The notes: generated from the letters alone by a model not told the origin. DNA of 23,512 nt from a virus (IMGVR_UViG_2531839455_000001), one strand, 5' to 3'. Shown: positions 10,563 to 23,512, counted from the first letter of the stretch. Program-made: numbers and translations.

Positions 10563-11504
10563 ATGTCCGGTTACTGTTTTTACTCTCAGGATGCATTAGC
10601 CTTAGCCCAGGCAGCTGGTGTTGATGTAATAATAAACGAGTATGCTGAGAAGAATAAAAAACAGACATATGTTCTTTGTCGTCCCCTGTCAAATGAGGAT
10701 GTAAAGTATGATTATGACCAAGCGATAGCGGTATTTTCGGCTGGTATAAAACCTTTTTTTATGAATTTAGGAGATGACGTCGAACTCTTTGAAGAGTATC
10801 AAGAGGATTTTCTAGAGGATGTATCATATTTAGCAGAGAAATTTAAGTATCGTAGTAAAATTGGAAGAAAAAAGACATGGCAAGATTTATTTGAAGTACT
10901 TTCTGTTGGTGATGCCGATTTCAGTAAGCTGGAGGTTGAAACTAAAGAAAGTAGAATAATTGATTTGCTAATCTCGCTTATTGTGGGAAGTATTAACGAT
11001 ACTTCAAGAATTAATCTTGAAGCAAGTAATTTATTAGATACAATAAAATCAAAGATTATTTTATTTGATACTGATCAAACAAAATTCGTTTTCCAAAGTG
11101 GAATTGGAAAAAAGACTGTAATACAAGGCTTGGCTGGTTCGGGGAAAACAGAACTCCTTTTACATAAATTAAAAGAGGTTTATTTAAGGAACCCTGATGC
11201 TAAAATTGCATTTACTTGTTTTAATAAAATACTTGCATCTACAATGAGAACTAGGATACCAGAGTTTTTTGATTTTATGCGAGTGGAAAAGCAAATTGAA
11301 TGGGGTACGAAACTTTTTTGTTTTAACTCTTGGGGTTTGACTAAAGATCCCTTTTCTGGGATGTATAGATATATATGTCATTATTACGAAATTCCATTCG
11401 GTGGTTTTGGCAACGGAGATTTCGATGCTCTTTGCAAAAAAGCCATTTTGGATATAAAAAAAGTGGGCGGTCTGATGAAAAAGCTCTCGATTATGTGTTT
11501 ATAG
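10563..11504 (+). CDS. UvrD-like SF1 helicase, N-terminal segment (unknown ~190-aa N-domain + Walker A); reading frame ends shortly after an A7 run
   Basis: AGAGGAGG RBS before ATG; Walker A GLAGSGKTELLLHK (nt ~11127-11168); AT-rich; frame continues sensibly in the -1 frame after 11456-11462. Confidence 0.7.
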   Translation: MSGYCFYSQDALALAQAAGVDVIINEYAEKNKKQTYVLCRPLSNEDVKYDYDQAIAVFSAGIKPFFMNLGDDVELFEEYQEDFLEDVSYLAEKFKYRSKIGRKKTWQDLFEVLSVGDADFSKLEVETKESRIIDLLISLIVGSINDTSRINLEASNLLDTIKSKIILFDTDQTKFVFQSGIGKKTVIQGLAGSGKTELLLHKLKEVYLRNPDAKIAFTCFNKILASTMRTRIPEFFDFMRVEKQIEWGTKLFCFNSWGLTKDPFSGMYRYICHYYEIPFGGFGNGDFDALCKKAILDIKKVGGLMKKLSIMCL

Positions 11505-12550
11505 ATGAAAGCCAAGATTTTCCACAAAGCTTCATTGAACTATGTGAAATGGTTACATCTAAAAAACTATATGTAGCGGGCGATGTATTTCAAAATATAT
11601 TTATGCCGATTAATGATAACGTGAATCGAGCAGATATAGTTCTTAAAAAATGTTATCGCACAGATCCAAAGAACTTAATGTTTTCTCATGCACTAGGAAT
11701 GGGACTTTATGAGAAACCGGTGCTTCGGTGGTTGAAAGAGACTGAGTGGGATTCTTGTGGATATAAATATAATAAGGTTGGGGATAGAGTACATTTATCT
11801 AGGGATCCGTTAAGACGCTTTGAAGATATTCCAAAAAATCATAAAAGTACGGCTATTCATTTACTAAAAGAAGTGGATAATGGTCCTGATAAAATAGTTG
11901 AAATTATTAAGGATATTCAGGCCCGCAATCCTACTTTAGAGCAAGGAGATATAGCAGTCATTTTCCTTGATGCTAGTGGTTATATTTATGATTATATTCA
12001 ATCACTAAAATCAAAAGTCAAGTTGCAGCTTGGTTGGGACTCTAATATTTCACATGAGACAAAATCAAAACAAGATGGGAAGCTTTTTATTTCCAATATA
12101 AACAATGCAAAAGGGCTTGAGTTCCCATTTGTTATTTGTTTTGCTATGAAATTAGTAAAGAGAGCAAACTTTCGAAATGCTCTGTATACTATGATGGCTA
12201 GATCTTTTTTAGAAAGCCATTTAGTTTTAAATAATGATAATGAAAATCCGGCAATGCCTACTATTATTGAAGGTTTAGATTTTCTCAATAAAAATGATTA
12301 TATGGATGTAAGACTTCCGTCGGATGAGGAAATAAACAATCAAAAGGATTATATTATTTTGGATGAGTCTACCTCTATTAATCAAATGGTTAGAAAATAT
12401 TGTGAAGATAAAAAATCCACACCTCGCTTAATAGCAAAAGTTACTCACACTGTAGAAACTATAATAGCAGGTCTTGATGATGATGATGTCGATGATGACT
12501 ATATAAATAGATTGATTGAAATAGAATATATAAGGAATAAAAAGTTATGA
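11375..12550 (+). CDS. UvrD-like SF1 helicase, C-terminal segment (helicase motifs II-VI); meaningful coding begins near 11462
   Basis: Motifs DYVFIDESQDF (II), YVAGDVFQNIF (III), CYRT (IV), AKGLEFPFVICF (VI); first ~29 codons of the ORF are an out-of-frame overlap with the N-terminal segment. Confidence 0.7.
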   Translation: MSLLRNSIRWFWQRRFRCSLQKSHFGYKKSGRSDEKALDYVFIDESQDFPQSFIELCEMVTSKKLYVAGDVFQNIFMPINDNVNRADIVLKKCYRTDPKNLMFSHALGMGLYEKPVLRWLKETEWDSCGYKYNKVGDRVHLSRDPLRRFEDIPKNHKSTAIHLLKEVDNGPDKIVEIIKDIQARNPTLEQGDIAVIFLDASGYIYDYIQSLKSKVKLQLGWDSNISHETKSKQDGKLFISNINNAKGLEFPFVICFAMKLVKRANFRNALYTMMARSFLESHLVLNNDNENPAMPTIIEGLDFLNKNDYMDVRLPSDEEINNQKDYIILDESTSINQMVRKYCEDKKSTPRLIAKVTHTVETIIAGLDDDDVDDDYINRLIEIEYIRNKKL

Positions 12551-13185
12551 GTTTTTATTTCTTTAATAATGTACCTACAGTGTACCTTGAAAAGTTCTGC
12601 GCTGTAAGAGATGCATTTTCCAATCTGGAAAATCTTCTTATTGCTGCGGAAATTATAAATACATGTCATGACTGTTGGAATAAAGAAACAAATGATTTCG
12701 ATTTGCTAATAAGTACTGGTACTCATAAGCGAATTCTGGTGAGGAAACCGGATGGTTTTTTTTCTATGAATTTACCATTTCAAGTAATTGAGTATGAAAG
12801 CAATATCTGTTTTAACTATGATGCCTATGGGCTTCCTGTTAATGCAGAGTTTATTTCTCGATGCAGGAATGTAATAAATACTTGCAGTAATGGCGCTTTT
12901 TCTCAGGAGGCAATTGCTCTTGAATTGTGTGATAACTTTGATCGAGATATTCAAAGTGCTATAAATTATGCTGATGCAATTTGTTCATTGTTGTTAGTTG
13001 ATCATGGGTATTTTAGGTTTGATGATGATCCTAAAAATGCGAAGGATAAAGTGCATCCAAGATATCACTTTGATTTTTTCTTCAATAATTCTACTAATGT
13101 AAAGATAGGCTGTAATACTCGTTTGGATGAATCATTTTTTTTAGAACTATTTGATGTAAATAAAGACCGCCCCTATCTGGCTTGA
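12547..13185 (+). CDS. Hypothetical 212-aa protein, translationally coupled partner of the helicase
   Basis: ATG overlaps helicase stop (ATGA); AT-rich, Cys/His/Asp-rich (LVDHGYFRFDDDPKNAKDKVHPRYHFDF); strong hairpin directly after stop. Confidence 0.65.
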   Translation: MSFYFFNNVPTVYLEKFCAVRDAFSNLENLLIAAEIINTCHDCWNKETNDFDLLISTGTHKRILVRKPDGFFSMNLPFQVIEYESNICFNYDAYGLPVNAEFISRCRNVINTCSNGAFSQEAIALELCDNFDRDIQSAINYADAICSLLLVDHGYFRFDDDPKNAKDKVHPRYHFDFFFNNSTNVKIGCNTRLDESFFLELFDVNKDRPYLA

Positions 13186-13635: not shown

Positions 13636-14504
13636 TTATGAAAGACCGTAGTATTTATTTAGCGCGGTGGTAGCGGCTTGAGTTGCTACAGCTATTCCTA
13701 TACCCAAAATACCATGGGCTGCTTTACTTGCAATATTTGCCAGCCATTTACTAACAGATTGACCGTATTCATCACGTCTGTTAGCTATCGGGCCATCTTC
13801 ACCAATAGCAATTTCTAAATCGTTTACATCAGATTTAGGAAACCCCTGAGCTAAGAGATATTCTTTTAATGATTCAATGTTGTTTTTTACGATATGGTTA
13901 TTCACAGAAAATGAGTTTTCATTTCCGAAGTTTATAACAGTATTGTCTCCAAAAATTGAGTTATGAAACAATGAAGACGTGTCGATATTTTTAAGTTTTT
14001 CTGTCATGTTTTTCTCATCTGATATTTCAGAAACTTGATCAGAAAGTTCAAGTATAAAATCAAGTAGCCGTGATCTGACCTGAGTTAAGATGGAAGTGAA
14101 GTTATGTAGCGCGATCTCTTTATAACAGCATGTTAACTCATAGCCTCTATCGATACCTTTGCAATATTTAACTAATGCATAATCTAAAGGAATTGGCTGC
14201 TGCAGGGTATGGCTATCACCAGCATTGGTTACTAGGTCTTCGATTTGACTGATTGAAAGTCTAACTTTACTGGTTGTAGCATCTTCATAGTCATCTTCAC
14301 TGAGATAGCCAATCGGTAAAGGAAAAGCTCTATATAGGCGAATGCCATTGTTCAGATCTGCAAGAATTCTTGTGCCAACAATTCTATAATCGGGAAGGGA
14401 AACTGAATCAGAATAACCGTTTATCTCATGATTTACCCATGCAGCAAGCTCCTTTTTCCCGATAGAGAAAAGAAGGATCTTTGTTTTTATGAGAGCATCT
14501 GTTG
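13636..14504 (-). pseudogene. Abi-like gene (AbiTii-type N-terminal domain suspected), 3' portion; gene split by IS66-family insertion
   Basis: Minus-strand frame is open from the IS boundary (14504) to the stop at 13636 (...KELAAWVNHEINGYSDS...MTEKLKNIDTSS...AAHGILGIGIAVATQAATTALNKYYGLS); the ORF track shows only the distal 123 aa because there is no in-frame ATG upstream. Confidence 0.6.
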
Positions 14505-14534
14505 GTAAGCGGCTCGTCAGAACCGTATTGATAT

Positions 14535-16106
14535 TTACTGAGAGCTCAGATCAACTTTCCAGGGCAACAGATCGCGTACCCGGTTTGCCGGCCAGTCCTG
14601 GATATGTTCAATGACGTAGCGCAGCCACTTTTCTGGCTCCACATTGTTCAGACGGCATGTGCCGATCAGCGAGTACAACACCGCCGCATGTTCACCACCG
14701 CTGTCGGAACCCGCGAACATCCACTTTTTCCGGCCTACGGCCACTCCCCGTAAGGCGTTCTCTGCGATGTTGTTGTCGATTTCCACCCAGCCATTACTGC
14801 AGTACACGTTCAGTGCATCCCACTGTTTCAGCAGGTATGCGAACGCTTTTGCCGTATCTGAGTGACGCGACAGTGTTTTCATCTGTTGCTGTATCCAGTC
14901 ATACAGTGACTGCATCAGTGGCGCGGCTCTGGTTTTTCTTGCCGCCAGACGCTGTTCTGCTGAACAGCCCCGGACCTCTGCCTCGATGGCATACAGTTCA
15001 CCGATACGCTGCAGGGCTTCCGTGGTGATGTCGGTGGGCGCTCTTGCATGCACATCGTGGATTTTTCTCCGGGCATGAGCCATACACGCGGCTTCCGTTA
15101 TTCTGCCGGATTCGTATAACGCCCGGTAACCACCGTAAGCATCGGCCTGAAGCACACCGCTGTAACCGGCCAGGTGATTTTGTGGATGGATACCTTTCCG
15201 GTCCGGACTGTACGCGAACCAGACCGCCGGGGGCATCTGTGAACCGGCGTTACGGTCATCACGGACGTAGACCCACAGCCGGGCTGTCCGGGTTTTACCG
15301 CTGCCCGGCTCCTGGACCGGGACGGGGATATCATCAGCATGGACTTTACCGGGCATCAGCACATACTGGCGCAGGACGTCATACAGCGGCTCCAGTAGTT
15401 CAGCAACGGCACCTGTCCAGCGCCCCAGTGTGGCACGGCTCAGCTCCACACCCTGACGGCGGTATATCTCTGACTGGCGGTATAACGGCAGATGGTCTGC
15501 ATATTTTCCGGTGACGACATGGGCCAGGAGCCCCGCTCCGGCATAACTGCGTGCAATGGGTTTTGAAGGTACTGGTGCCTGCACGATATGGTCGCACCGA
15601 CAACAGGCCAGTTTCGGACGTTGTGTTTCGATAACCTTAAAGGCGCTGCTGATAAGCTCCAGTTGCTCTGACACATCACATCCCAGAGAACTGAGTTCAC
15701 CACCACAGGCAGGACAGCATTCCTCTTCCGGCCGGATAACCCGGGTTTCACGGGGAAGTGAGGCCGGTAACGGTTTACGGGCTGAAGACTGGCGCAGGGC
15801 GGATGGCAGTACCGGGTCATATTGCTCACCCAGCGTTTCCGCCATTTCTTCCTGAAGTGCGCTGATTCGCTCCTGTGCTTCCTGTATCTGCCGTTCGGTT
15901 TTTGCACGAAGTTTTTCTGAGCTTTTACCGAACTGCATACGTTGCAGTTTCGCAACCAGCGCCTTCAGCCGGTTGATTTCGGAAGCATAAGCCGCCACCC
16001 GCTGTGAGAGCAGGCGGTTGTATTCAGCCATCTGGCGTATGGTGTCCTGTTGCGTCTGCAACAGTGCCCGCAGGCGGGCGTTCTCATGAGCAAGTGAGGT
16101 GTCCAT
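14535..16106 (-). CDS. tnpC: IS66-family transposase TnpC (523 aa)
   Basis: [20 protein letters not shown]... with leucine-zipper-like N-terminus, CxxC...CxxC zinc-finger and DDE-type core, matching recalled IS66 Orf3. Confidence 0.9.
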
Positions 16107-16125
16107 ATCCTCACTTTACAACGGG

Positions 16126-16473
16126 TTATATGCGGATTCCAGCGCGTTCCGTTCGTTTCGGGTGCTTCCAGTTGATACCTTCAAGAAGCATGGATAACTG
16201 AGCCGGAGTAAGGTGCACCTTGCCGTCACGGGTGACTGGCCAGACGAAGCGGCCCCGCTCCAGGCGTTTGGTGAAGAGGCACAGTCCGTCACTGTCAGCC
16301 CACAACACTTTTATCTGGTCACCCCGGCGTCCGCGGAAGATGAACAGGTGTCCGGAGAACGGGTCATCCTTCAGGACGTTCTGAACTTTTGATGCCAGGC
16401 CGTTAAAGCCATTTCGCATATCGGTGATACCTGCAACCAGCCAGATACGCGAACCTGCAGGGAGAGATATCAT
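16126..16473 (-). CDS. tnpB: IS66-family TnpB (Orf2), 115 aa
   Basis: MISLPAGSRIWLVAGITDMRNGFNGLASKVQ...GHLFIFRGRRGDQIKVLWAD..., the recalled conserved IS66 Orf2 signature. Confidence 0.85.
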   Translation of the reverse strand: MISLPAGSRIWLVAGITDMRNGFNGLASKVQNVLKDDPFSGHLFIFRGRRGDQIKVLWADSDGLCLFTKRLERGRFVWPVTRDGKVHLTPAQLSMLLEGINWKHPKRTERAGIRI

Positions 16474-16679
16474 CAGTGGCTGCTCCCTTTTATTTCGCGG
16501 ATAAGTGTCTGTAATAACGCCGGCGTCAGTTTACCTTTAAGCCTGAGAGTTCCGGCCGGCAGAACCAGCTCACAACACAGACTGTCGGACGGTGTATTTA
16601 TCTGCTCTGGTTCCTGTGCGGGGGCCGGGATTTTATTATCCGGCTCCGGCGTTAACGTCACGGGAAGCAGTGCCGGCAT
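16473..16679 (-). CDS. IS66-internal small ORF (68 aa), stop overlaps tnpB start; possibly part of the accessory protein
   Basis: ATGA overlap with tnpB; Pro-rich; no in-frame ATG upstream; uncertain. Confidence 0.3.
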   Translation of the reverse strand: MPALLPVTLTPEPDNKIPAPAQEPEQINTPSDSLCCELVLPAGTLRLKGKLTPALLQTLIREIKGSSH

Positions 16680-16809
16680 ATTTTTTCCGGAAGGCAGCAG
16701 GCCACCTTTCCGGTATTGATGGTCGCCAGTTGAAGAGCAGGTTATCGTTGATTCCGTTTTCCCGGGGCGATCTGCGCCACACAGGCTCCGGGCTGCAGTG
16801 ACTGCTCCA

Positions 16810-17154
16810 CTAAGGCGATTTTAAACTCATAAGGGAAGTTGGGCCGCCGGGGGACGTTTTTTTACCACGGGGGCGTTCGGATATAACGGTGCTTTCAGGA
16901 CGTACGACTGGTACCGTGGAAAATTGTCCGTAAAGGCAGGCATCAAGTTCCTGCTCCGACATGCCTGCGGGCAAAGGCCACGAAAGGCCAGCTCTCCGAA
17001 AGCGCACGAACATACTACAAACTGTTGATTTTGGTACACCCAGGCGACGCCCGGCCACAACCCGGGGTAAATGTTCTTCAAAGTGAAGACGTAAAGCTTC
17101 AGTGATCCAGGTCCGGTGTTTCATACGATAGTGTCCATTAAAAATGATGGACAT
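16810..17154 (-). CDS. tnpA: IS66-family accessory protein TnpA (Orf1), HTH-containing, ~104-114 aa
   Basis: First ORF inside the left IR, same strand as tnpB/tnpC; HTH-like ...LGVPKSTVCSMFVRFRRAGLSWPLP...; alternative start MKHRTWITE at 17124. Confidence 0.5.
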   Translation of the reverse strand: MSIIFNGHYRMKHRTWITEALRLHFEEHLPRVVAGRRLGVPKSTVCSMFVRFRRAGLSWPLPAGMSEQELDACLYGQFSTVPVVRPESTVISERPRGKKTSPGGPTSLMSLKSP

Positions 17155-17207
17155 TATTTTTGTAGAGCCGGAGGAAACAGACCAGACGGTTTAAATGAGC
17201 CGGTTAC

Positions 17208-17267
17208 ATCTGTTGTGTCTTCATCACCAGTACTTAGTATCTGAATGATTTCTTGCAGTTGGTTCAT
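17208..17267 (-). pseudogene. Abi-like gene, 5' portion (first 18-20 codons, MNQLQEIIQILSTGDEDT...), separated from its 3' portion by the IS66 element
   Basis: Removing the IS and one TSD copy joins this segment in frame with 14504-13636 to give a continuous 306-codon ORF. Confidence 0.55.
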
Positions 17268-17281
17268 ATGTCTTATCCCAT

Positions 17282-17305
17282 AAAAAAGCCCGCATAAGCG
17301 GGCTT
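17282..17305 (-). terminator. Rho-independent terminator (minus strand) just upstream of the Abi-like start
   Basis: Minus strand AAGCCCGC-TTAT-GCGGGCTT followed by T6. Confidence 0.5.
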
Positions 17306-17434
17306 CTATGTCACTAAAGAGCCGCGGCTCCTTTGCGTATCCTTTTTTGTCTCCTCACCGTCTGGTCGGTGTCCTGCTGAGACTGCTAACTTCCTGTTTT
17401 TGTTGGTGTTGTCCTTACACTGTCCAATCATGAT

Positions 17435-17462
17435 TGGTGGAGCTGGCGGGAGTTGAACCCGC
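17435..17462 (-). other. ssrA (tmRNA) 3'-end fragment, att-site-like footprint
   Basis: Minus strand reads GCGGGTTCAACTCCCGCCAGCTCCACCA, identical to the recalled 3' terminus of E. coli tmRNA; no matching 5' half, so not a complete RNA gene. Confidence 0.6.
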
Positions 17463-17849
17463 TGACACGTCGTATGCAAGAACTTGCTGCGGCTGGATGG
17501 TGGACTTTCGATAGTGCGAGTATTGAATGATTTCCATCTATTACAGATTTTACCGTATTTCGGCATGAATGAAACTGAATATCCTCCCACCGACCCTCCA
17601 TGACTTTACACCACTGTCTCTGGGGCTGCTATGTGCCAAGAGCGGACGTTACAATCATCAGCCTATCCATTAACTAATGGGAATAGGTCACGATAGTTGT
17701 TGAATGAGCCCTTGTATAGTTTCAAAAATTGCTTTGATTTAATACATTGATACTGTTAGATTCTGAAGGATCCTATCAGTTTTAACACAATAGGTTTGTA
17801 TAAAAACATCCTGCAGCGTTTCAAATATTTTTCATGAGGTATTTATAAA

Positions 17850-18956
17850 ATGATTACTAGTGGGTATTTAATAGGACAGATAATTGACGACCTATCAAAT
17901 ATAGCACAGCAAGCAAAAGTCAGAAACAAACTTGGACATACTGATTTATCTGTGTTTGCTGAGAATTTTTTCAAGGATATACTAAACGAGACACTGGAAC
18001 TATCCTTAATAAACACTAACATAACAAGAGCTAACGAGCCTGGTATAGATCTTGCTGATATGGCAAAAAAAACAGCATTCCAGGTCACAACTGACAAAAC
18101 AAGTAAAAAAGTAATAAACACTCTTGAAAAAATAACATCTGAACAAAGAAATAATTACCGCCACTTCAATATTTTGATAATAGGTGATAAACAAGATAAG
18201 TATGAGGCTGTAACGAAAGCTTTAGCTAACAGAAGTGATACCGAAGAATCTTATGATGAAAGTGAAGAAGAACAAAAAAGTAAGATTCATAAAGATATAG
18301 TATTTGATCCAAACGAAAACATTATGGATTTGACTGACTTATTCCGTAAAATAATTGGGTTAGATTTGGTGAATATCCAAAAAATCCATAGCATCATCCA
18401 AAAAGAAGGCGCGAAAGTCAAAATTGAGCTTCAGGTCCCTGATGAGAATGGTGAGTTTCAAACGAATGGTTATGATCTTTGGGAATCACGTCCAAAAAAA
18501 CAACTTAGCGATGGGGTCATTTTCAGTAACTGGGAAGCTGCACAAGGCGGAGCAGTAGCCACACAAGAAGCAATTGATAAAACTAAGAAAGACATTGAGG
18601 AATTAGCGAGTCGCCTTTATTCCTTGCCACGAATAACACGCGAGTTTCTAGCAATGCTTTATGAGCTGGCTAACTATAAACGTGAACGATATGATGAGCA
18701 TCCAAGTATTTTCTATAGTTTTGTTAAAAAAACTTACCCCAATGCAGACGAAGAGATAAAATTACTGCTATCTCATGAGTTAATCGATATGGACTCTGAA
18801 CAAAAAGACACCGAAAGGTTTGTGGATACCGAGATTGGGTTATGTTTTTCTCTTCCATACAAGTCTTACCTAAATTTAGGGTTCTATAACTTTGTAAATG
18901 AAAATAAAATTTTATTTCGTGACGTAATTGGAAAGGTGGATTTTTCATGCTTCTAA
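17850..18956 (+). CDS. Hypothetical AT-rich 368-aa protein (orphan cargo gene next to attR; possible abortive-infection/defence protein)
   Basis: Clean ORF with GAGGT RBS 9 nt upstream; Lys/Glu/Asn-rich; no recognisable phage structural or housekeeping motifs by eye. Confidence 0.7.
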   Translation: MITSGYLIGQIIDDLSNIAQQAKVRNKLGHTDLSVFAENFFKDILNETLELSLINTNITRANEPGIDLADMAKKTAFQVTTDKTSKKVINTLEKITSEQRNNYRHFNILIIGDKQDKYEAVTKALANRSDTEESYDESEEEQKSKIHKDIVFDPNENIMDLTDLFRKIIGLDLVNIQKIHSIIQKEGAKVKIELQVPDENGEFQTNGYDLWESRPKKQLSDGVIFSNWEAAQGGAVATQEAIDKTKKDIEELASRLYSLPRITREFLAMLYELANYKRERYDEHPSIFYSFVKKTYPNADEEIKLLLSHELIDMDSEQKDTERFVDTEIGLCFSLPYKSYLNLGFYNFVNENKILFRDVIGKVDFSCF

Positions 18957-19623
18957 ATCCAAAATGACATCCCACTATATTTCATTGTTCTAACTCCTTT
19001 TGACTGCATAATAAGTCATCGGTTATGTTAGCCGACTGACTTTATGTTATTTACATTTAAATGACACAGTTGGAATATAATAATCAGCTGAAACAATTAC
19101 ACATAATTTCAAAATATTCTTTCATGTAACACTTCACCAGTAGAATTATCTCCGCTACCACATAATAAGCTTAAATCATATTAGAGTGTCTCTTGTTCTG
19201 GAGGCGAAAAATATATTTAATAAAGCTACAGCCTCCCAATTAGCATTGACCTAGTCACATGATGTCGCCAGTGGGCAAGATGAAGGGCCTTAATTGGTCT
19301 GTTGTTTTACTGTTCAGGTAAGCCTGTTGCCAGAGATAAGTTTGTTTTTTTATGAAAGTCAGCTCTTCGCTCATAACAGACATTCACTACAGTTATGGTA
19401 GAAGGTATGCATGCTGGGTGGGGAAAGTATGAAGGAAAAGAAGGCTGCTGTGTCGTTTGACATCACTGCAATCTTCTTATTGGTTATGCGGGTCGTAGTG
19501 GGACAAAACTGAGACACATAAGGCCTAGCAATGGCTTGCAAGGCTTTACATGTTTTGATGTGGTGGGACTTGTGAGCGCAGTGTTGATGGGGTAATGCTT
19601 TGAATTAGAAGCGGATTCTTATA

Positions 19624-19679
19624 ATTCGTAATGCGAAGGTCGTAGGTTCGACTCCTATTATCGGCACCATTAAAATCAA
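19624..19679. repeat. attR: exact 56-bp copy of thrW 3' end + 10 nt (partial tRNA-Thr, not a functional gene)
   Basis: Identical to 1399-1454; lacks the tRNA 5' half. Confidence 0.85.
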
Positions 19680-19950
19680 ATTGTTACGTAAGATCTTATC
19701 ATTCTCCCACCAAAAAATTATCTTAATGTAACAGCTGGTGTAAGTAAATTCTATCAACGAAGATCAATCTTATCTACTGACCAAAAAGGCCTGATAGGGC
19801 TTCGCTCACTATACATCCTTGGCTGCAGGTTTAGTTGTACACCACTCCTAAATTTAATGTGTTGGCAATGTGTTCAATAAAGCTCGAACAAATTAGCTCA
19901 TTATGATCGGTTAATACTTCAACTTCTGGTTGCATGATTGTTTGTCCGTA

Positions 19951-19985
19951 AAAAGATAACGCGCCTGCCGGGTAGTAGCAGGCGC
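19951..19985 (-). terminator. Putative terminator downstream of the toxin-antitoxin operon
   Basis: Minus strand GCGCCTGC-(9-nt loop)-GCAGGCGC followed by a T-rich tract (GTTATCTTTTT). Confidence 0.4.
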
Positions 19986-20050
19986 ATTACGCAATAGGTA
20001 AACAAGGGAGGAAGTTCAGAAATGTAAATCGGGAAGGTTGTACGCAATGT

Positions 20051-20730
<680 letters not shown>

Positions 20731-20748
20731 TACAGTTCTCCACTATTG

Positions 20749-20970
20749 TCAGTTCAGGGTGATGCTCATCAGGCAGGTATAGGGCCCATTGCGGTCCTGG
20801 CGGCGTTCGGCGTATACCGCGAGGACTCCGGCGATATCCGGAACGTCCCTGCCGGTGTAATGACAGACGCTACCGTGCCACTGGTATTTGCCGGTGCAGT
20901 AGCGAAAGATTCGGGACTCAGGATGCTGGCGGTATATCGTCATTGCCCTGCGTTTACTGATAATTTTCAT
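20749..20970 (-). CDS. ykfH: DUF987 protein (YkfH/YeeT-like), 73 aa
   Basis: MKIISKRRAMTIYRQHPESRIFRYCTGKYQWHG...; start at internal Met of the 77-aa ORF. Confidence 0.75.
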   Translation of the reverse strand: MKIISKRRAMTIYRQHPESRIFRYCTGKYQWHGSVCHYTGRDVPDIAGVLAVYAERRQDRNGPYTCLMSITLN

Positions 20971-20978
20971 GTAATACC

Positions 20979-21455
20979 TCAAAGCAGACCGTGTTCTGCG
21001 AACGAATAGATTTGCCTGCCACCGACAATCAGATGGTCAGGGACACGGATATCCACCAGCTGAAGCACCTGAACCAGTCGCTGCGTGAGGGTTTTGTCGG
21101 CCTGGCTAGGTGTCGTCTCGCCGGAAGGATGGTTATGCGCGAGTATCACCGCCGCCGCGTTGAAGTGCAGAGCACGTTTGACCACCTCCCGGGGATGCAC
21201 CTCGGTGCGGTTAATCGTGCCGGTGAAGAGCGTTTCATGGGCAATCAACTGATTCTGGTTGTCCAGATACAACACCCGGAACTCTTCCCGCTCAAGCGCG
21301 GCCATATGCAGTCGCAGCCATTCACGTACGGCGTGGGTAGAGGTGAAGGCTACGCCGGGCTCATGCAGGTGGCGGTCCAGAGCCCTGAGCGCCCGCTGAA
21401 TGAGACGCCGGTCCTGTGGCGTCATCTCGCCGGGTAAAAAGGAAAGCTGTTTCAT
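20979..21455 (-). CDS. ykfG: RadC-like JAB-domain protein (YkfG/YeeS-like), 158 aa
   Basis: JAMM-like motif ...HFNAAAVILAHNHPSGETTPSQAD... Confidence 0.85.
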   Translation of the reverse strand: MKQLSFLPGEMTPQDRRLIQRALRALDRHLHEPGVAFTSTHAVREWLRLHMAALEREEFRVLYLDNQNQLIAHETLFTGTINRTEVHPREVVKRALHFNAAAVILAHNHPSGETTPSQADKTLTQRLVQVLQLVDIRVPDHLIVGGRQIYSFAEHGLL

Positions 21456-21470
21456 CTGTTGCTCCTTCGG

Positions 21471-21929
21471 TCAGTCGATAATACGCAGAATGGCGTGAGC
21501 CTCTGGATGTTGCATGGCATACTCCCGCAGGCGGTAATAGTGTGCGGTCATCGCGTCACATTCTGTACGGCAGGCATGGTGGCTATACGCAATCAGGCAG
21601 ACAGCAATACCTGCTGCTTCTGCACTCATTTGGGCATCGTTACCGTTCAGGCAGTTAAACAGACGCCATGTCTCATCGTTGTCAGGCTCGGGGGACATAA
21701 ATGCGCCGCCATTGCTGAGGGTGTAGAACGACCAGATACCACCGCTGTAGCCCTCACAGAAGCGGTCCATCCAGGCGAAGATATGCGGCTCCAGGAGTAG
21801 CCACTGCGGGATAGCGCCAAAGTACTGTGGCCAGAAATCGATACGCTGTTCATCGGGGACCGGCGTGACGGTCAGTTCAAATTCGGGTTGGTTAGCGGGT
21901 GCGAGGTCGTGCTGCGTCTGTGTTGTCAT
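21471..21929 (-). CDS. yafX: Antirestriction protein (YafX/YfjX/KlcA-like), 152 aa
   Basis: Start at MTTQTQHDLAPANQPEFELTV... (ATG 21929, GGAGAC RBS); ORF track start at 22142 is an upstream extension. Confidence 0.8.
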   Translation of the reverse strand: MTTQTQHDLAPANQPEFELTVTPVPDEQRIDFWPQYFGAIPQWLLLEPHIFAWMDRFCEGYSGGIWSFYTLSNGGAFMSPEPDNDETWRLFNCLNGNDAQMSAEAAGIAVCLIAYSHHACRTECDAMTAHYYRLREYAMQHPEAHAILRIID

Positions 21930-22026
21930 GGGTATGTCTCCGTCAATAAAAACGCCAGCGGCGATGGCTGGCGTATGGGGATATAAAGTGTGTTCGGGGA
22001 GGTGAATGCGGGTAAATGCTTCGCGA

Positions 22027-22266
22027 TCAGCGGGTGGCCGTGTCTGTACGGATGCCTGAGGTGCGGATATAGCGGTTAAGACCTTCACCGGCATCCGGCT
22101 CAAAGTTCCATGCCCGCCAGACCATCCGGCCTTCAGTATCACGAACCACCAGACGGAAGTGACTGCCCTGGTCGTCTTCGAGTGTGATATTGCTGTACGT
22201 GGTAGTGACCGCTTGCGCTTGTCTCCGGGTGAAAGGCCCCGGTGGCAGCAACACGGATTGGGTCAT
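22027..22266 (-). CDS. ykfF: DUF905 protein (YkfF-like), 79 aa
   Basis: [43 protein letters not shown]...; start at internal Met of the 150-aa ORF. Confidence 0.75.
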
Positions 22267-22342
22267 TTTCGGGCTCCTGATAAAAGAAAACCCCGGCAGC
22301 CTGCTAGCTGTCGGGGTGGATTTGCTGGGGAAGATACTACTA

Positions 22343-22810
22343 TCAGTCGTTGCTGCAGTCTCCGAGAGTGGACAGAACTTTCTCAGTGTTCTTCCGGTCC
22401 GCAGTGAAGGTCCCTGCTTTGTGGTCATTGACGTAGACGTCGAACTGCCCGGCCTCAGAGATATTGCTGATGAAGTCAAACCAGGCGTTATCGCCGTTAC
22501 GCCAGCCCAGGCTGGACGGAATAATGTACTGCTGGTGATCCATCACTACGGTGATAGTAGTGTCGTCATCGTGCGAACTGACCATCTTGTCATCGGCAAG
22601 GGTAAGAAAGACTGAATGCTGATAGAAACCATTCTGGTCCGGGTTCCCTGTGCAGTTGATGGTAAACGTCTTTCCGCTGGCTTCGGTCACGCTGTATTCC
22701 GTATTGCCCTGACCGTAACCCTGCTGCCAGAACCCCGGGATAGCAGAGGCATTAAAGCTCGCGAGCAGTACACCCGCCAGCATAAACCGACTTAGTGAAA
22801 GTATTGTCAT
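22343..22810 (-). CDS. ykfB: Secreted/periplasmic small protein (YkfB-like), 155 aa
   Basis: N-terminal signal-peptide-like segment [23 protein letters not shown]; position in CP4-6-like block. Confidence 0.65.
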
Positions 22811-22832
22811 TCTTGTCTCCTTTGTCGTTGTT

Positions 22833-23276
22833 TTATTCCTGATTGTCAGGGTTCGAGGGTATCAGTAGCTGCCCCATCAGTTTGCCGTCATGGGCGTACT
22901 CAAAGTATTTTTCTTTGGTATACGGGTCCGTCACCTCCTGGTATTCCAGTTTGATGTTATCGGCAATACACAGCGCATTCATCAGCGGCTGGATGGTTTT
23001 TTCCTGCATATCCACGAGGTAGTAGTAACTACCGCCCTCGCAGCCATCGGGCGACTCACGGGTACGTAAGACCTGCAGGGTGAGACCTGATGAAAAGCCA
23101 ACCTGTGACCATTCTTCGCTGACATCATCCTGCCGACTGACCACATCGCTGAAGCGCGGAGGCGTGAGGTCCTTAAATTTACTGATAGCTTTCAGGTCAT
23201 CACTCCTGTCATCGCAGGCGCTCAGAAACAGAGTGGTGGCAACCATCGCCAGCAGAGGTAGTGTTTTACATTTCAT
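22833..23276 (-). CDS. yafY: Lipoprotein (YafY-like), 147 aa
   Basis: Signal peptide plus lipobox (LFLSAC); start overlaps upstream stop (TAATG). Confidence 0.7.
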   Translation of the reverse strand: MKCKTLPLLAMVATTLFLSACDDRSDDLKAISKFKDLTPPRFSDVVSRQDDVSEEWSQVGFSSGLTLQVLRTRESPDGCEGGSYYYLVDMQEKTIQPLMNALCIADNIKLEYQEVTDPYTKEKYFEYAHDGKLMGQLLIPSNPDNQE

Positions 23277-23512
23277 TATTTTTTCCCTGAAATCAGACGT
23301 ACCACTTTGGCAAAGACATAAATGCCGACGAAAATACCCACCGGCACGCCGACGAACGGTGTCAGCGCGACACTGGCAGCACCGGCTGCGCCACCTCCCG
23401 TCAGCAGTGCGGCAACAGTGGCAAGGGTCAGGGCCGCGAGACTGTCGGACACCCCGGTTTTGTTCAGAATGATGACGATGACAACAATGGCGATAATGGC
23501 AATAACGGGCAT
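23276..23512 (-). CDS. Small hydrophobic membrane protein, 78 aa, runs to window edge (start may lie outside)
   Basis: Highly hydrophobic/Gly-Ala-rich ORF coupled to the yafY-like gene; Met at 23512 may be coincidental. Confidence 0.45.
   Translation of the reverse strand: MPVIAIIAIVVIVIILNKTGVSDSLAALTLATVAALLTGGGAAGAASVALTPFVGVPVGIFVGIYVFAKVVRLISGKK

What the first reader, a model, noticed from the sequence alone, without database searches (positions are those of the whole stretch)
17850..18956. Orphan 368-aa AT-rich gene in the cargo slot next to attR
Seen: a well-formed ORF with good RBS, strongly AT-rich and Lys/Glu/Asn-rich, transcribed divergently from the Abi-like gene and placed in the last slot before attR (where P22-like phages carry lysogenic-conversion cargo). 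Inference: candidate single-gene defence/abortive-infection protein; the N-terminal ~130 residues (..GHTDLSVFAENFFKDILNE..GIDLADMAKKTAFQVTTDK..) could be a small nuclease-like or sensor domain, but I cannot assign a family by eye.
Basis: inference. Interest (0 to 1): 0.55.

Follow-up and report, generated by a model that had tools for sequence, protein, structure and literature searches.

The report
Stand-alone SMEK nuclease in prophage cargo slot
The gene is real and encodes a rare two-domain protein: a nuclease domain already known as the killing module of two bacterial immune systems, joined to an uncharacterised sensor-like domain. It sits in the variable cargo slot at the end of a prophage, so it is a good but untested candidate for a single-gene anti-phage defence.

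Summary
The ORF at 17850-18956 (+, 368 aa, GC 0.35) is confirmed. It is the last gene before the thrW attR of an SfIV/SfV-like prophage remnant, in the position where SfIV carries its gtr O-antigen genes.

It is not an orphan. Residues 8-170 match the SMEK_N domain (PF21941, 2e-33; NF033859). This Mrr-like PD-(D/E)xK nuclease is the effector in SMEK-APAZ short-Argonaute systems and in short Lamassu LmuA. It also matches the solved Kordia "Mrr domain" (26bh, 4e-16). E38, D67, Q78, T80 and K87 are invariant.

Residues about 223-368 form a confident winged-helix-containing domain with no Pfam or PDB sequence relative. In 1.84 billion proteins this domain occurs only in this fixed ~340-370 aa architecture (281 clusters).

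No neighbouring gene is conserved across 59 loci, and there is no Argonaute or LmuB. Homologues lie in prophage ends, ICEs and plasmids, next to DarTG, IetAS, HNH, RM and AbiTii genes.

The winged helix is acidic, including its recognition helix and wing. A classic modified-DNA reader (type IV) model is therefore less likely than a trigger-sensing or autoinhibitory domain.

Verdict: a plausible single-gene defence nuclease, a new variant of a known kind. Function is untested.

The parts
17836..17839 (+). GAGG Shine-Dalgarno-like motif, 10 nt upstream of the ATG
   Evidence: Read directly from the sequence. No sigma-70 promoter stands out above chance in 17550-19700: 6 sites found against 7.4 expected.
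17850..18956 (+). Complete SMEK-wH gene, 368 aa plus stop
   Evidence: ORF listing. It is 100% identical in 11 of 5426 complete E. coli genomes, where it is annotated 'SMEK domain-containing protein'.
17871..18359 (+). N-terminal SMEK_N (Mrr-like PD-(D/E)xK) nuclease domain, aa 8-170. Invariant residues are E38, N57, N62, G65, D67, Q78, T80 and K87.
18228..18299 (+). Acidic insertion (aa 127-150, ..NRSDTEESYDESEEEQKSKIH..). It is present only in some of the closest homologues and has low model confidence.
   Evidence: Alignment A1 shows a gap here in most homologues. Mean pLDDT is 61 for residues 131-140.
18363..18515 (+). Linker: a long helix (aa 173-194) followed by a conserved but low-confidence loop (aa 195-222, consensus ELEVPDxDGxYPTSGxDxWE)
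   Evidence: AF2 secondary structure and pLDDT of 58-77. E193, L194, G201 and E212 are at least 90% conserved.
18516..18953 (+). C-terminal family-specific domain (aa 223-368). It contains a winged helix (aa ~259-335) with an invariant LPRxTR motif (L256, P260, R261, T263, R264) and L306. The domain is acidic.
19624..19679 (+). attR: a 56-bp duplicate of the 3' half of tRNA-Thr (thrW). Its attL copy is at 1399-1454.
   Evidence: Alignment, BLAST and the tRNA call at 1369-1444.
17283..17462 (-). Context: an inverted relic of the ssrA 3' end plus about 150 bp of the chromosomal flank downstream of ssrA. It marks the left border of the ~2.2-kb segment that carries the gene.
   Evidence: Rfam tmRNA match at 17446-17462. 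It is 90-97% identical to the ssrA 3' end and flank in about 5000 E. coli genomes.
13636..17267 (-). Context: the divergently transcribed AbiTii gene, interrupted by ISCro1 (IS66 family, 14505-17206)
   Evidence: PF18864 3.7e-34 and PADLOC AbiTii 3.3e-33 on the intact copy L002:10751-11668. Insertion breakpoints with a ~9-bp overlap.

Best explanation
The gene encodes a self-contained, single-polypeptide defence nuclease carried as accessory cargo at the end of a prophage.

The N-terminal SMEK domain is a Mrr-like PD-(D/E)xK DNase: E38 on helix 2, D67 at the start of a strand, Q78-x-T80 on the next strand, and K87 on the following helix. This domain is the effector.

The C-terminal domain contains a winged helix, is acidic and is specific to this family. 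I propose it is the sensor or regulator. It would hold the nuclease inactive until it binds an infection cue, more likely a phage protein or nucleoprotein structure than a modified base. Cue binding would release or multimerise the nuclease, which would then cut DNA and stop phage replication, possibly at the cost of the cell.

Shown: the ORF, its domain identity, the invariant catalytic-type residues, the fixed two-domain architecture, the absence of a conserved partner, and the mobile-element and defence-island context.

Inferred: nuclease activity of this protein, the sensor role of the C-terminal domain, activation by oligomerisation (by analogy with SPARDA and Lamassu effectors), and the anti-phage phenotype.
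For: - Domain identity: PF21941 115.6 bits against a cutoff of 27; NF033859 80.9 bits against 30; Kordia Mrr domain 26bh 4e-16.
- Catalytic-type residues: E38, D67, Q78, T80 and K87 are invariant in 44 homologues that go down to 30% identity.
- SMEK is a documented effector nuclease. [quoted passage not shown] It is also a short-Lamassu LmuA effector (PMC12663957).
- The C-terminal domain is exclusive to this architecture: 281 clusters among 1.84e9 proteins, essentially all with the domain at about residues 150-345 of 335-370-aa proteins.
- No conserved neighbour in 59 loci from more than 8 phyla, and no Piwi or SMC-like neighbour.
- Context in this window: the slot holds gtr genes in SfIV. 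In other E. coli prophages it holds type II RM plus a 379-aa protein, GIY-YIG plus an AAA ATPase, or RT plus SLATT.
- Context of homologues: next to IetA/IetS in E. coli; HNH_2 plus integrase at icd in Serratia; YobI-ATPase, HNH_5 and a Tn7-like element in Pseudomonas; an ICE in Salmonella; a Metallophos-STAND protein in Rhodobacter; DarT-HD plus Macro downstream of tail fibres, and beside large serine recombinases, in IMG/VR proviruses.
- Rare and patchy distribution: 11 of 5426 E. coli genomes, with GC 0.35 in a 0.5 GC host. This is typical of horizontally moving defence cargo.
- The winged helix is acidic. Family median charge is -7, position 302 in H3 is 95% D/E, and the wing is 40-70% D/E. 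This favours a protein-sensing or autoinhibitory role over direct DNA reading.
Against: - No experiment exists for this family. No paper mentioning it was found.
- PADLOC 2.0 has no system model for it. The only hit is to the nuclease part of a pAgo-associated model.
- The context evidence is guilt by association. Only roughly a tenth of immediate neighbours hit defence models (a rough reading of a summary table), and no background rate was measured.
- In Nostocales the gene is syntenic beside housekeeping genes.
- The canonical (D/E)xK lysine is replaced by T80, so activity depends on the inferred relocated K87.
- tblastn found no homologue in 50,697 deposited phage genomes.
- The interdomain arrangement is uncertain (pTM 0.58), and oligomerisation was not tested.
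- The Pantoea plasmid copy lies near ardA and psiB in a leading-region-like segment, where anti-defence genes are more usual.
Confidence: 0.55

Rival explanations
1. It is a type IV (modification-dependent) restriction endonuclease. The C-terminal winged helix reads modified phage DNA (for example hmC, glucosyl-hmC, m6A or other hypermodified bases) and directs the Mrr-like nuclease to cut it. Unmodified host DNA is spared, so no methyltransferase is needed.
For: - Nuclease-plus-winged-helix fusions are an established design for type IV enzymes (PMC11037411). Stand-alone nuclease-plus-C-terminal-sensor enzymes without a methyltransferase, such as the END nucleases, restrict hypermodified phages (PMC12191111).
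- The nuclease fold matches MspJI and FokI-type cleavage domains, and the SMEK fold is closest to AspBHI (bioRxiv 10.1101/2023.06.08.544223).
- No methyltransferase is adjacent in the window or conserved among neighbours.
Against: - The winged helix is acidic. Family median net charge of the C-terminal domain is -7 and pI is about 5.
- The helix at the recognition position has a 95% conserved D/E at 302 and otherwise conserved hydrophobic residues. The wing is 40-70% D/E. This is the opposite of known DNA-reading winged helices.
- There is no sequence relationship to the DpnI or Mrr-N winged helices or to any PDB chain.
Confidence: 0.2
2. It serves the mobile element rather than host immunity. 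It could be a nuclease for inter-element competition or exclusion, for plasmid or prophage establishment (anti-defence), or for addiction, with no role against lytic phages.
For: - All well-resolved contexts are mobile elements: prophage ends, an ICE, conjugative plasmids and a Tn7-like element.
- The Pantoea copy lies between umuDC-like genes and an orphan methyltransferase, ardA and psiB.
Against: - No antitoxin-like or immunity partner is conserved.
- The same effector domain is documented only in defence systems (PMC10810196, PMC12663957).
- Neighbours are mostly defence genes, not anti-defence genes.
- Prophage-borne defence also serves the element, so this rival overlaps with the main explanation.
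Confidence: 0.12
3. It is an effector that needs a separately encoded sensor. Candidates are the neighbouring UvrD-like helicase module, AbiTii, or an unlinked host factor. In that case it is one part of a multi-gene system, not a single-gene system.
For: - In its known systems SMEK is driven by another protein: pAgo, or LmuB/C (PMC12205087, PMC12663957).
- In the E. coli prophage it travels with helicase + 212 aa + AbiTii.
Against: - None of these neighbours is present at the 59 loci from other species.
- AbiTii is inactivated here while the SMEK gene remains intact and 100% conserved.
- The protein carries its own conserved, family-exclusive C-terminal domain.
Confidence: 0.06
4. It is a catalytically dead or decaying nuclease-fold protein, acting as a regulator, a DNA-binding protein or a remnant.
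For: - The canonical lysine of (D/E)xK is T80.
- The prophage is a remnant with several broken genes.
Against: - Full-length ORFs with invariant E38, D67, Q78, T80 and K87 persist across phyla down to about 28% identity.
- The same QxT...K configuration occurs in the Kordia domain, whose complex cleaves DNA (PMC12205087).
Confidence: 0.05

Closest known systems
SMEK-APAZ (Mrr-like-APAZ) partner of short prokaryotic Argonautes, clade S2B, e.g. the Kordia jejudonensis KjAgo system (PDB 26bh holds the Mrr domain)
   Same: Both have the same N-terminal nuclease domain family. Our protein matches 26bh at 4e-16 over aa 9-182 and PADLOC Aga_REase-PNTD1-PNTD2 at 4e-28. Both share the E...D...QxT...K residues.
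   Different: Our protein has no APAZ region. Only positions 7-181 of the 463-position profile are matched. No Argonaute gene lies nearby here or at 59 other loci. The C-terminal domain is unrelated and specific to this family.
Short Lamassu LmuA with a SMEK effector domain
   Same: Both have SMEK as an N-terminal effector fused to a C-terminal regulatory part (PMC12663957).
   Different: No LmuB (SMC-like) or LmuC neighbour is present, and there is no PADLOC Lmu hit. Our protein is much shorter and stands alone.
Type IV restriction enzymes of the Mrr / MspJI-AspBHI kind, and winged-helix-nuclease fusions (DpnI/HhiV4I-like)
   Same: Both combine a Mrr-like PD-(D/E)xK nuclease with a winged-helix-fold domain in one polypeptide, with no methyltransferase (PMC11037411).
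   Different: The domain order is reversed relative to Mrr. No Mrr_cat Pfam hit appears even at E<=1. The winged helix is acidic and unrelated in sequence to known modification readers.
END nucleases (type IIS-like nuclease plus an inactive EndoIII sensor)
   Same: Both are stand-alone defence nucleases without a methyltransferase, with an N-terminal cleavage domain and a C-terminal sensing domain that sets specificity (PMC12191111).
   Different: The sensor fold differs (winged helix, not HhH/EndoIII), and so does the nuclease family.

Membership tests
SMEK_N domain family (Pfam PF21941 / NCBIfam NF033859) | HMM match above the curated cutoff | tested here: met
   PF21941 scores 115.6 bits against a cutoff of 27, over aa 10-168 and profile positions 1-139 of 140. 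NF033859 scores 80.9 bits against 30.
SMEK_N domain family (Pfam PF21941 / NCBIfam NF033859) | PD-(D/E)xK / Mrr-like restriction-endonuclease fold with conserved acidic, Gln and Lys residues | tested here: met
SMEK_N domain family (Pfam PF21941 / NCBIfam NF033859) | Nuclease activity | not testable with these tools
   Activity is reported only for the Kordia SMEK-APAZ/KjAgo complex (cited in PMC12205087 and PMC10810196).
Short-pAgo nuclease systems (SPARDA-like SMEK-APAZ + pAgo) | APAZ region C-terminal to the nuclease domain | tested here: not met
   The PADLOC Aga_REase-PNTD1-PNTD2 profile is matched only at positions 7-181 of 463. A profile of the C-terminal domain finds only proteins of the same 335-370-aa architecture.
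Short-pAgo nuclease systems (SPARDA-like SMEK-APAZ + pAgo) | Adjacent short Argonaute (MID-PIWI) gene | tested here: not met
   There is no such ORF in the window. No Piwi family appears among the flanking genes of the other loci.
Lamassu (LmuA-LmuB(-LmuC)) | SMC-like LmuB encoded next to the effector protein | tested here: not met
   The neighbours are IS66/AbiTii on one side and attR on the other. There is no conserved neighbour at 59 loci and no Lmu model hit.
Type IV modification-dependent restriction enzymes | Nuclease domain fused to a domain that reads DNA modification | tested here: inconclusive
   A nuclease and a winged-helix fold are both present. However, the winged helix is acidic at the recognition helix and wing and has no sequence relative among solved readers.
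Type IV modification-dependent restriction enzymes | No cognate methyltransferase | tested here: met
   No methyltransferase lies within the prophage right end, and none recurs among neighbours.
Type IV modification-dependent restriction enzymes | Cleavage depends on modified DNA | not testable with these tools
   This needs in vitro or plaque assays with modified and unmodified DNA.
Known single-gene defence systems in PADLOC-DB 2.0.0 | Match to a system model over most of the protein | tested here: not met
   The only hits are two Aga_REase-PNTD1-PNTD2 models (PDLC02399, PDLC02415), both matching only the N-terminal part. Newer DefenseFinder models could not be run.
Prophage-end accessory (moron/defence) cargo | Located between the last structural gene and att; variable content between related prophages; deviant GC | tested here: met
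   attR lies about 670 bp downstream. SfIV carries gtr genes in the same slot. Related E. coli prophages carry alternative cargo there. Gene GC is 0.35.

The most novel reading that the evidence does not exclude
SMEK-wH is a previously unrecognised single-gene anti-phage system. Its family-exclusive, acidic, winged-helix-containing domain would be a new kind of infection sensor, binding a phage protein or acting as a DNA-mimicking autoinhibitor, that switches on a Mrr-like collateral DNase. It would be the free-standing counterpart of the effector module that Argonaute and Lamassu systems recruit.
Probability: 0.35. Interest if true: 0.55.

Novelty: new variant of a known kind. Interest (0 to 1): 0.45.

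Why it matters
If the gene protects against phages, it would add a compact (1.1 kb) single-protein system to the defence catalogue. It would also show that the SMEK nuclease, so far known only as a module driven by Argonaute or Lamassu sensors, can act with its own built-in sensor.

The C-terminal domain is found nowhere else and looks unlike a DNA reader. Identifying what it senses could therefore reveal a new trigger-recognition mode.

The locus also illustrates that the gtr (serotype-conversion) slot of SfIV/P22-type prophages is reused as a defence hotspot. That is useful for mining further systems. If the gene does nothing against phages, it remains an ordinary, already-named domain protein in a decaying prophage.

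Tried and rejected
- pAgo-associated system: rejected. There is no APAZ match and no Argonaute neighbour.
- Lamassu: rejected. There is no LmuB or LmuC.
- C-terminal domain shared with other effector architectures: an HMM search of 1.84e9 proteins found only the same architecture. The exceptions were mis-called starts or fragments.
- Conserved partner gene: all-vs-all clustering of +-3 neighbours at 59 loci found none outside Nostocales synteny.
- Foldseek against the PDB with the full model gave nothing significant.
- afdb50 was not available, so AlphaFold-database relatives of the C-terminal domain could not be examined.
- tblastn against deposited phage genomes found no hit.
- Literature searches for the accession, and for SMEK together with defence or restriction, found no study of the stand-alone family. 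A search for 'Mrr-APAZ' found nothing.
- The promoter and terminator scan was not above chance.
- The tmRNA-like hit turned out to be an att-site relic, not an RNA gene.

Full report
**1. Observation**

The ORF 17850-18956 (+) is real. It has an ATG start, encodes 368 aa, and has a GAGG motif 10 nt upstream. Its 372-codon open frame far exceeds the longest frame in 500 shuffles of the surrounding 2.1 kb (mean 85, maximum 188).

Gene GC is 0.349. The window as a whole is 0.46, and the flanking proA, IS66 and CP4-6-like parts are 0.53-0.56. The protein is rich in I, L, E, K, D and N.

**2. Setting**

The window starts with proA and tRNA-Thr (thrW, 1369-1444), followed by an integrase and early genes. 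These are 97-99% identical to Shigella serotype-converting phages SfIV, SfV and SfII.

A 56-bp copy of the tRNA 3' half at 19624-19679 repeats 1399-1454 and marks attR. To the right lies a CP4-6-like island carrying ykfI/yafW and other genes.

The prophage is a remnant. After a tail-fibre-assembly fragment come four AT-rich elements:
- a UvrD-like helicase of 662 aa;
- a 212-aa protein;
- an AbiTii gene on the minus strand;
- the gene under study.

In this window AbiTii is split by ISCro1 (IS66 family) at 14505-17206, with a ~9-bp duplication.

In SfIV, the stretch between tail-fibre assembly and attP/int carries gtrA-gtrB-gtrIV. In related E. coli prophages the same end carries other cargo: type II RM plus an unknown 379-aa protein, GIY-YIG plus an AAA ATPase, or RT plus SLATT.

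The 582-bp spacer between AbiTii and the gene contains an inverted relic of the ssrA 3' end and its chromosomal flank. The gene therefore sits in a ~2.2-kb segment bounded by two att-type remnants.

**3. What the protein is**

*N-terminal domain.* Residues 8-170 are a SMEK_N domain: PF21941 2.1e-33, NF033859 4.6e-23. They match the solved "Mrr domain from Kordia jejudonensis Mrr-APAZ pAgo" (26bh) at 4.3e-16. They also match the nuclease part only of the PADLOC model Aga_REase-PNTD1-PNTD2.

E38, D67, Q78, T80 and K87 are invariant down to 30% identity. The pattern D...QxT...K is shared with the Kordia domain. It resembles the D...QxK variant that I recall for Mrr from my own knowledge, not tested here, with the lysine apparently moved to the next helix.

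The literature describes SMEK as a Mrr-like effector nuclease in two settings:
- short-Argonaute S2B systems (PMC10810196; PMC12205087; bioRxiv 10.1101/2023.06.08.544223);
- short Lamassu LmuA (PMC12663957).

It also heads larger proteins: an 888-aa Agrobacterium protein, and a 1105-aa SMEK-TPR protein beside a reverse transcriptase.

Its hallmark is an invariant L..LPRxTR motif at the start of helix 1, plus L306.

A profile of this half, searched against 1.84 billion representative proteins, found only 281 clusters. Virtually all have the same ~340-370 aa layout. The apparent exceptions are mis-called starts or fragments. The architecture is therefore fixed and the C-terminal domain is exclusive to it.

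**4. Is it stand-alone?**

Sixty-seven loci came from one-genome-per-species contigs. They cover Proteobacteria, Nostocales, Bacteroidota, Myxococcota, Paenibacillus, Armatimonadota and others.

Clustering the +-3 neighbours at 59 full-length loci found no shared neighbour, apart from local synteny in Nostocales. Pfam and PADLOC scans of the immediate neighbours gave only scattered hits: integrases, HNH, McrBC, IetA/S, SIR2, AbiJ, Cas1 and PDC candidates. No Piwi or SMC-like proteins appeared.

**5. Contexts elsewhere**

| Host / source | Context |
|---|---|
| E. coli (11 of 5426 complete genomes, 100% identical) | Same prophage end; once followed by IetA/IetS |
| Serratia | Between icd and a lambda-type integrase, with an HNH_2 gene |
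| Pseudomonas | Near YobI-ATPase, HNH_5 and a Tn7-like element |
| Salmonella | ICE cargo |
| Rhodobacter | Next to a Metallophos-STAND protein |
| Pantoea | Conjugative plasmid, near ardA and psiB |
| IMG/VR (six viral contigs) | After tail fibres beside DarT-HD plus Macro; beside large serine recombinases; four of six within 7 kb of a contig end |

**6. Mechanism**

The effector is almost certainly the SMEK nuclease. The open question is what the C-terminal domain does.

The textbook reading would be a type IV enzyme whose winged helix reads modified DNA. The family's winged helix argues against this:
- The C-terminal domain is acidic, with median net charge -7 and pI about 5.
- The helix at the recognition position has 95% D/E at position 302 and otherwise conserved leucines.
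- The wing is 40-70% D/E.

I therefore favour a sensor or autoinhibitor that responds to a phage protein or structure and licenses the nuclease. Activation may work by multimerisation, as in SPARDA and Lamassu, but that step is analogy, not evidence. I keep the type IV model as the main rival.

**7. Novelty**

The domain and the protein name are already in databases, and the nuclease-plus-sensor logic is familiar. What appears to be undescribed is this stand-alone family, its exclusive C-terminal domain, and any phenotype. PADLOC 2.0 has no model for it, and the searchable literature has no study of it.

I rate it a new variant of a known kind, of moderate interest.

Noticed in passing
window 14505-17206 (IS), 13636-14504 and 17207-17267 (gene halves): An ISCro1 (IS66-family: tnpA, tnpB and a 523-aa transposase) is inserted about 55 nt into an AbiTii abortive-infection gene, with a ~9-bp target duplication. 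The gene also seems to carry a frameshift. The copy in strain 2013C-4991 (L002) is intact.
   Followed up: yes
window 10563-13185: An AT-rich (GC 0.33) two-gene module: a 662-aa UvrD-like helicase (PADLOC 'Helicase' PDLC03002, 3.6e-32; weaker NERD+UvrD and GajB hits) plus a 212-aa protein with no family. It looks like a candidate defence pair. In the window the helicase is split into two overlapping ORFs by a 1-nt indel relative to L001 and L002. This may be an assembly error, since the window differs from L001 only by 5 indels.
   Followed up: partly
window 17283-17462 (minus strand): An inverted relic of the last ~28 nt of ssrA (tmRNA) plus about 150 bp of the chromosomal flank downstream of ssrA, 90-97% identical to about 5000 E. 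coli genomes. It looks like a captured attR of an ssrA-integrating element. The same relic occurs at the right ends of other prophages that carry different cargo.
   Followed up: partly
L003 8165-9304 (minus), E. coli Res13-Lact-EB12-05: In a related prophage the same att-proximal slot holds a 379-aa protein with no Pfam or PADLOC hit, next to a type II restriction-modification pair. It is another unexplored cargo candidate.
   Followed up: no
window 19700-23512: Immediately right of attR lies a CP4-6-like island (ykfI/yafW toxin-antitoxin, JAB/RadC-like, antirestriction, DUF905 and others). Two mobile elements are therefore stacked in tandem at thrW.
   Followed up: partly
L090 3778-4800 and L091 5860-6885 (IMG/VR contigs): In two viral contigs a ~341-aa protein with no Pfam hit ends 10 nt before the SMEK-wH homologue. 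It may be an operon partner in that lineage only.
   Followed up: no
L087 5206-7670 (IMG/VR provirus): A DarT domain fused to an HD domain, followed by a Macro-domain protein (DarTG-like), lies directly upstream of a 61%-identical SMEK-wH homologue and downstream of tail-fibre genes.
   Followed up: partly
window 18228-18299 (aa 127-150): A highly acidic, low-confidence insertion (SDTEESYDESEEEQKS) is present in only some of the closest homologues (for example P0004, P0024, P0032), while others such as Salmonella and Citrobacter lack it. Its role is unknown.
   Followed up: no
L022, L028, L038, L039, L043, L044 (Nostocales): In heterocystous cyanobacteria the homologue lies in a conserved chromosomal neighbourhood next to a double-domain PTPS/QueD-like gene. 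Everywhere else its distribution is patchy and associated with mobile elements.
   Followed up: no
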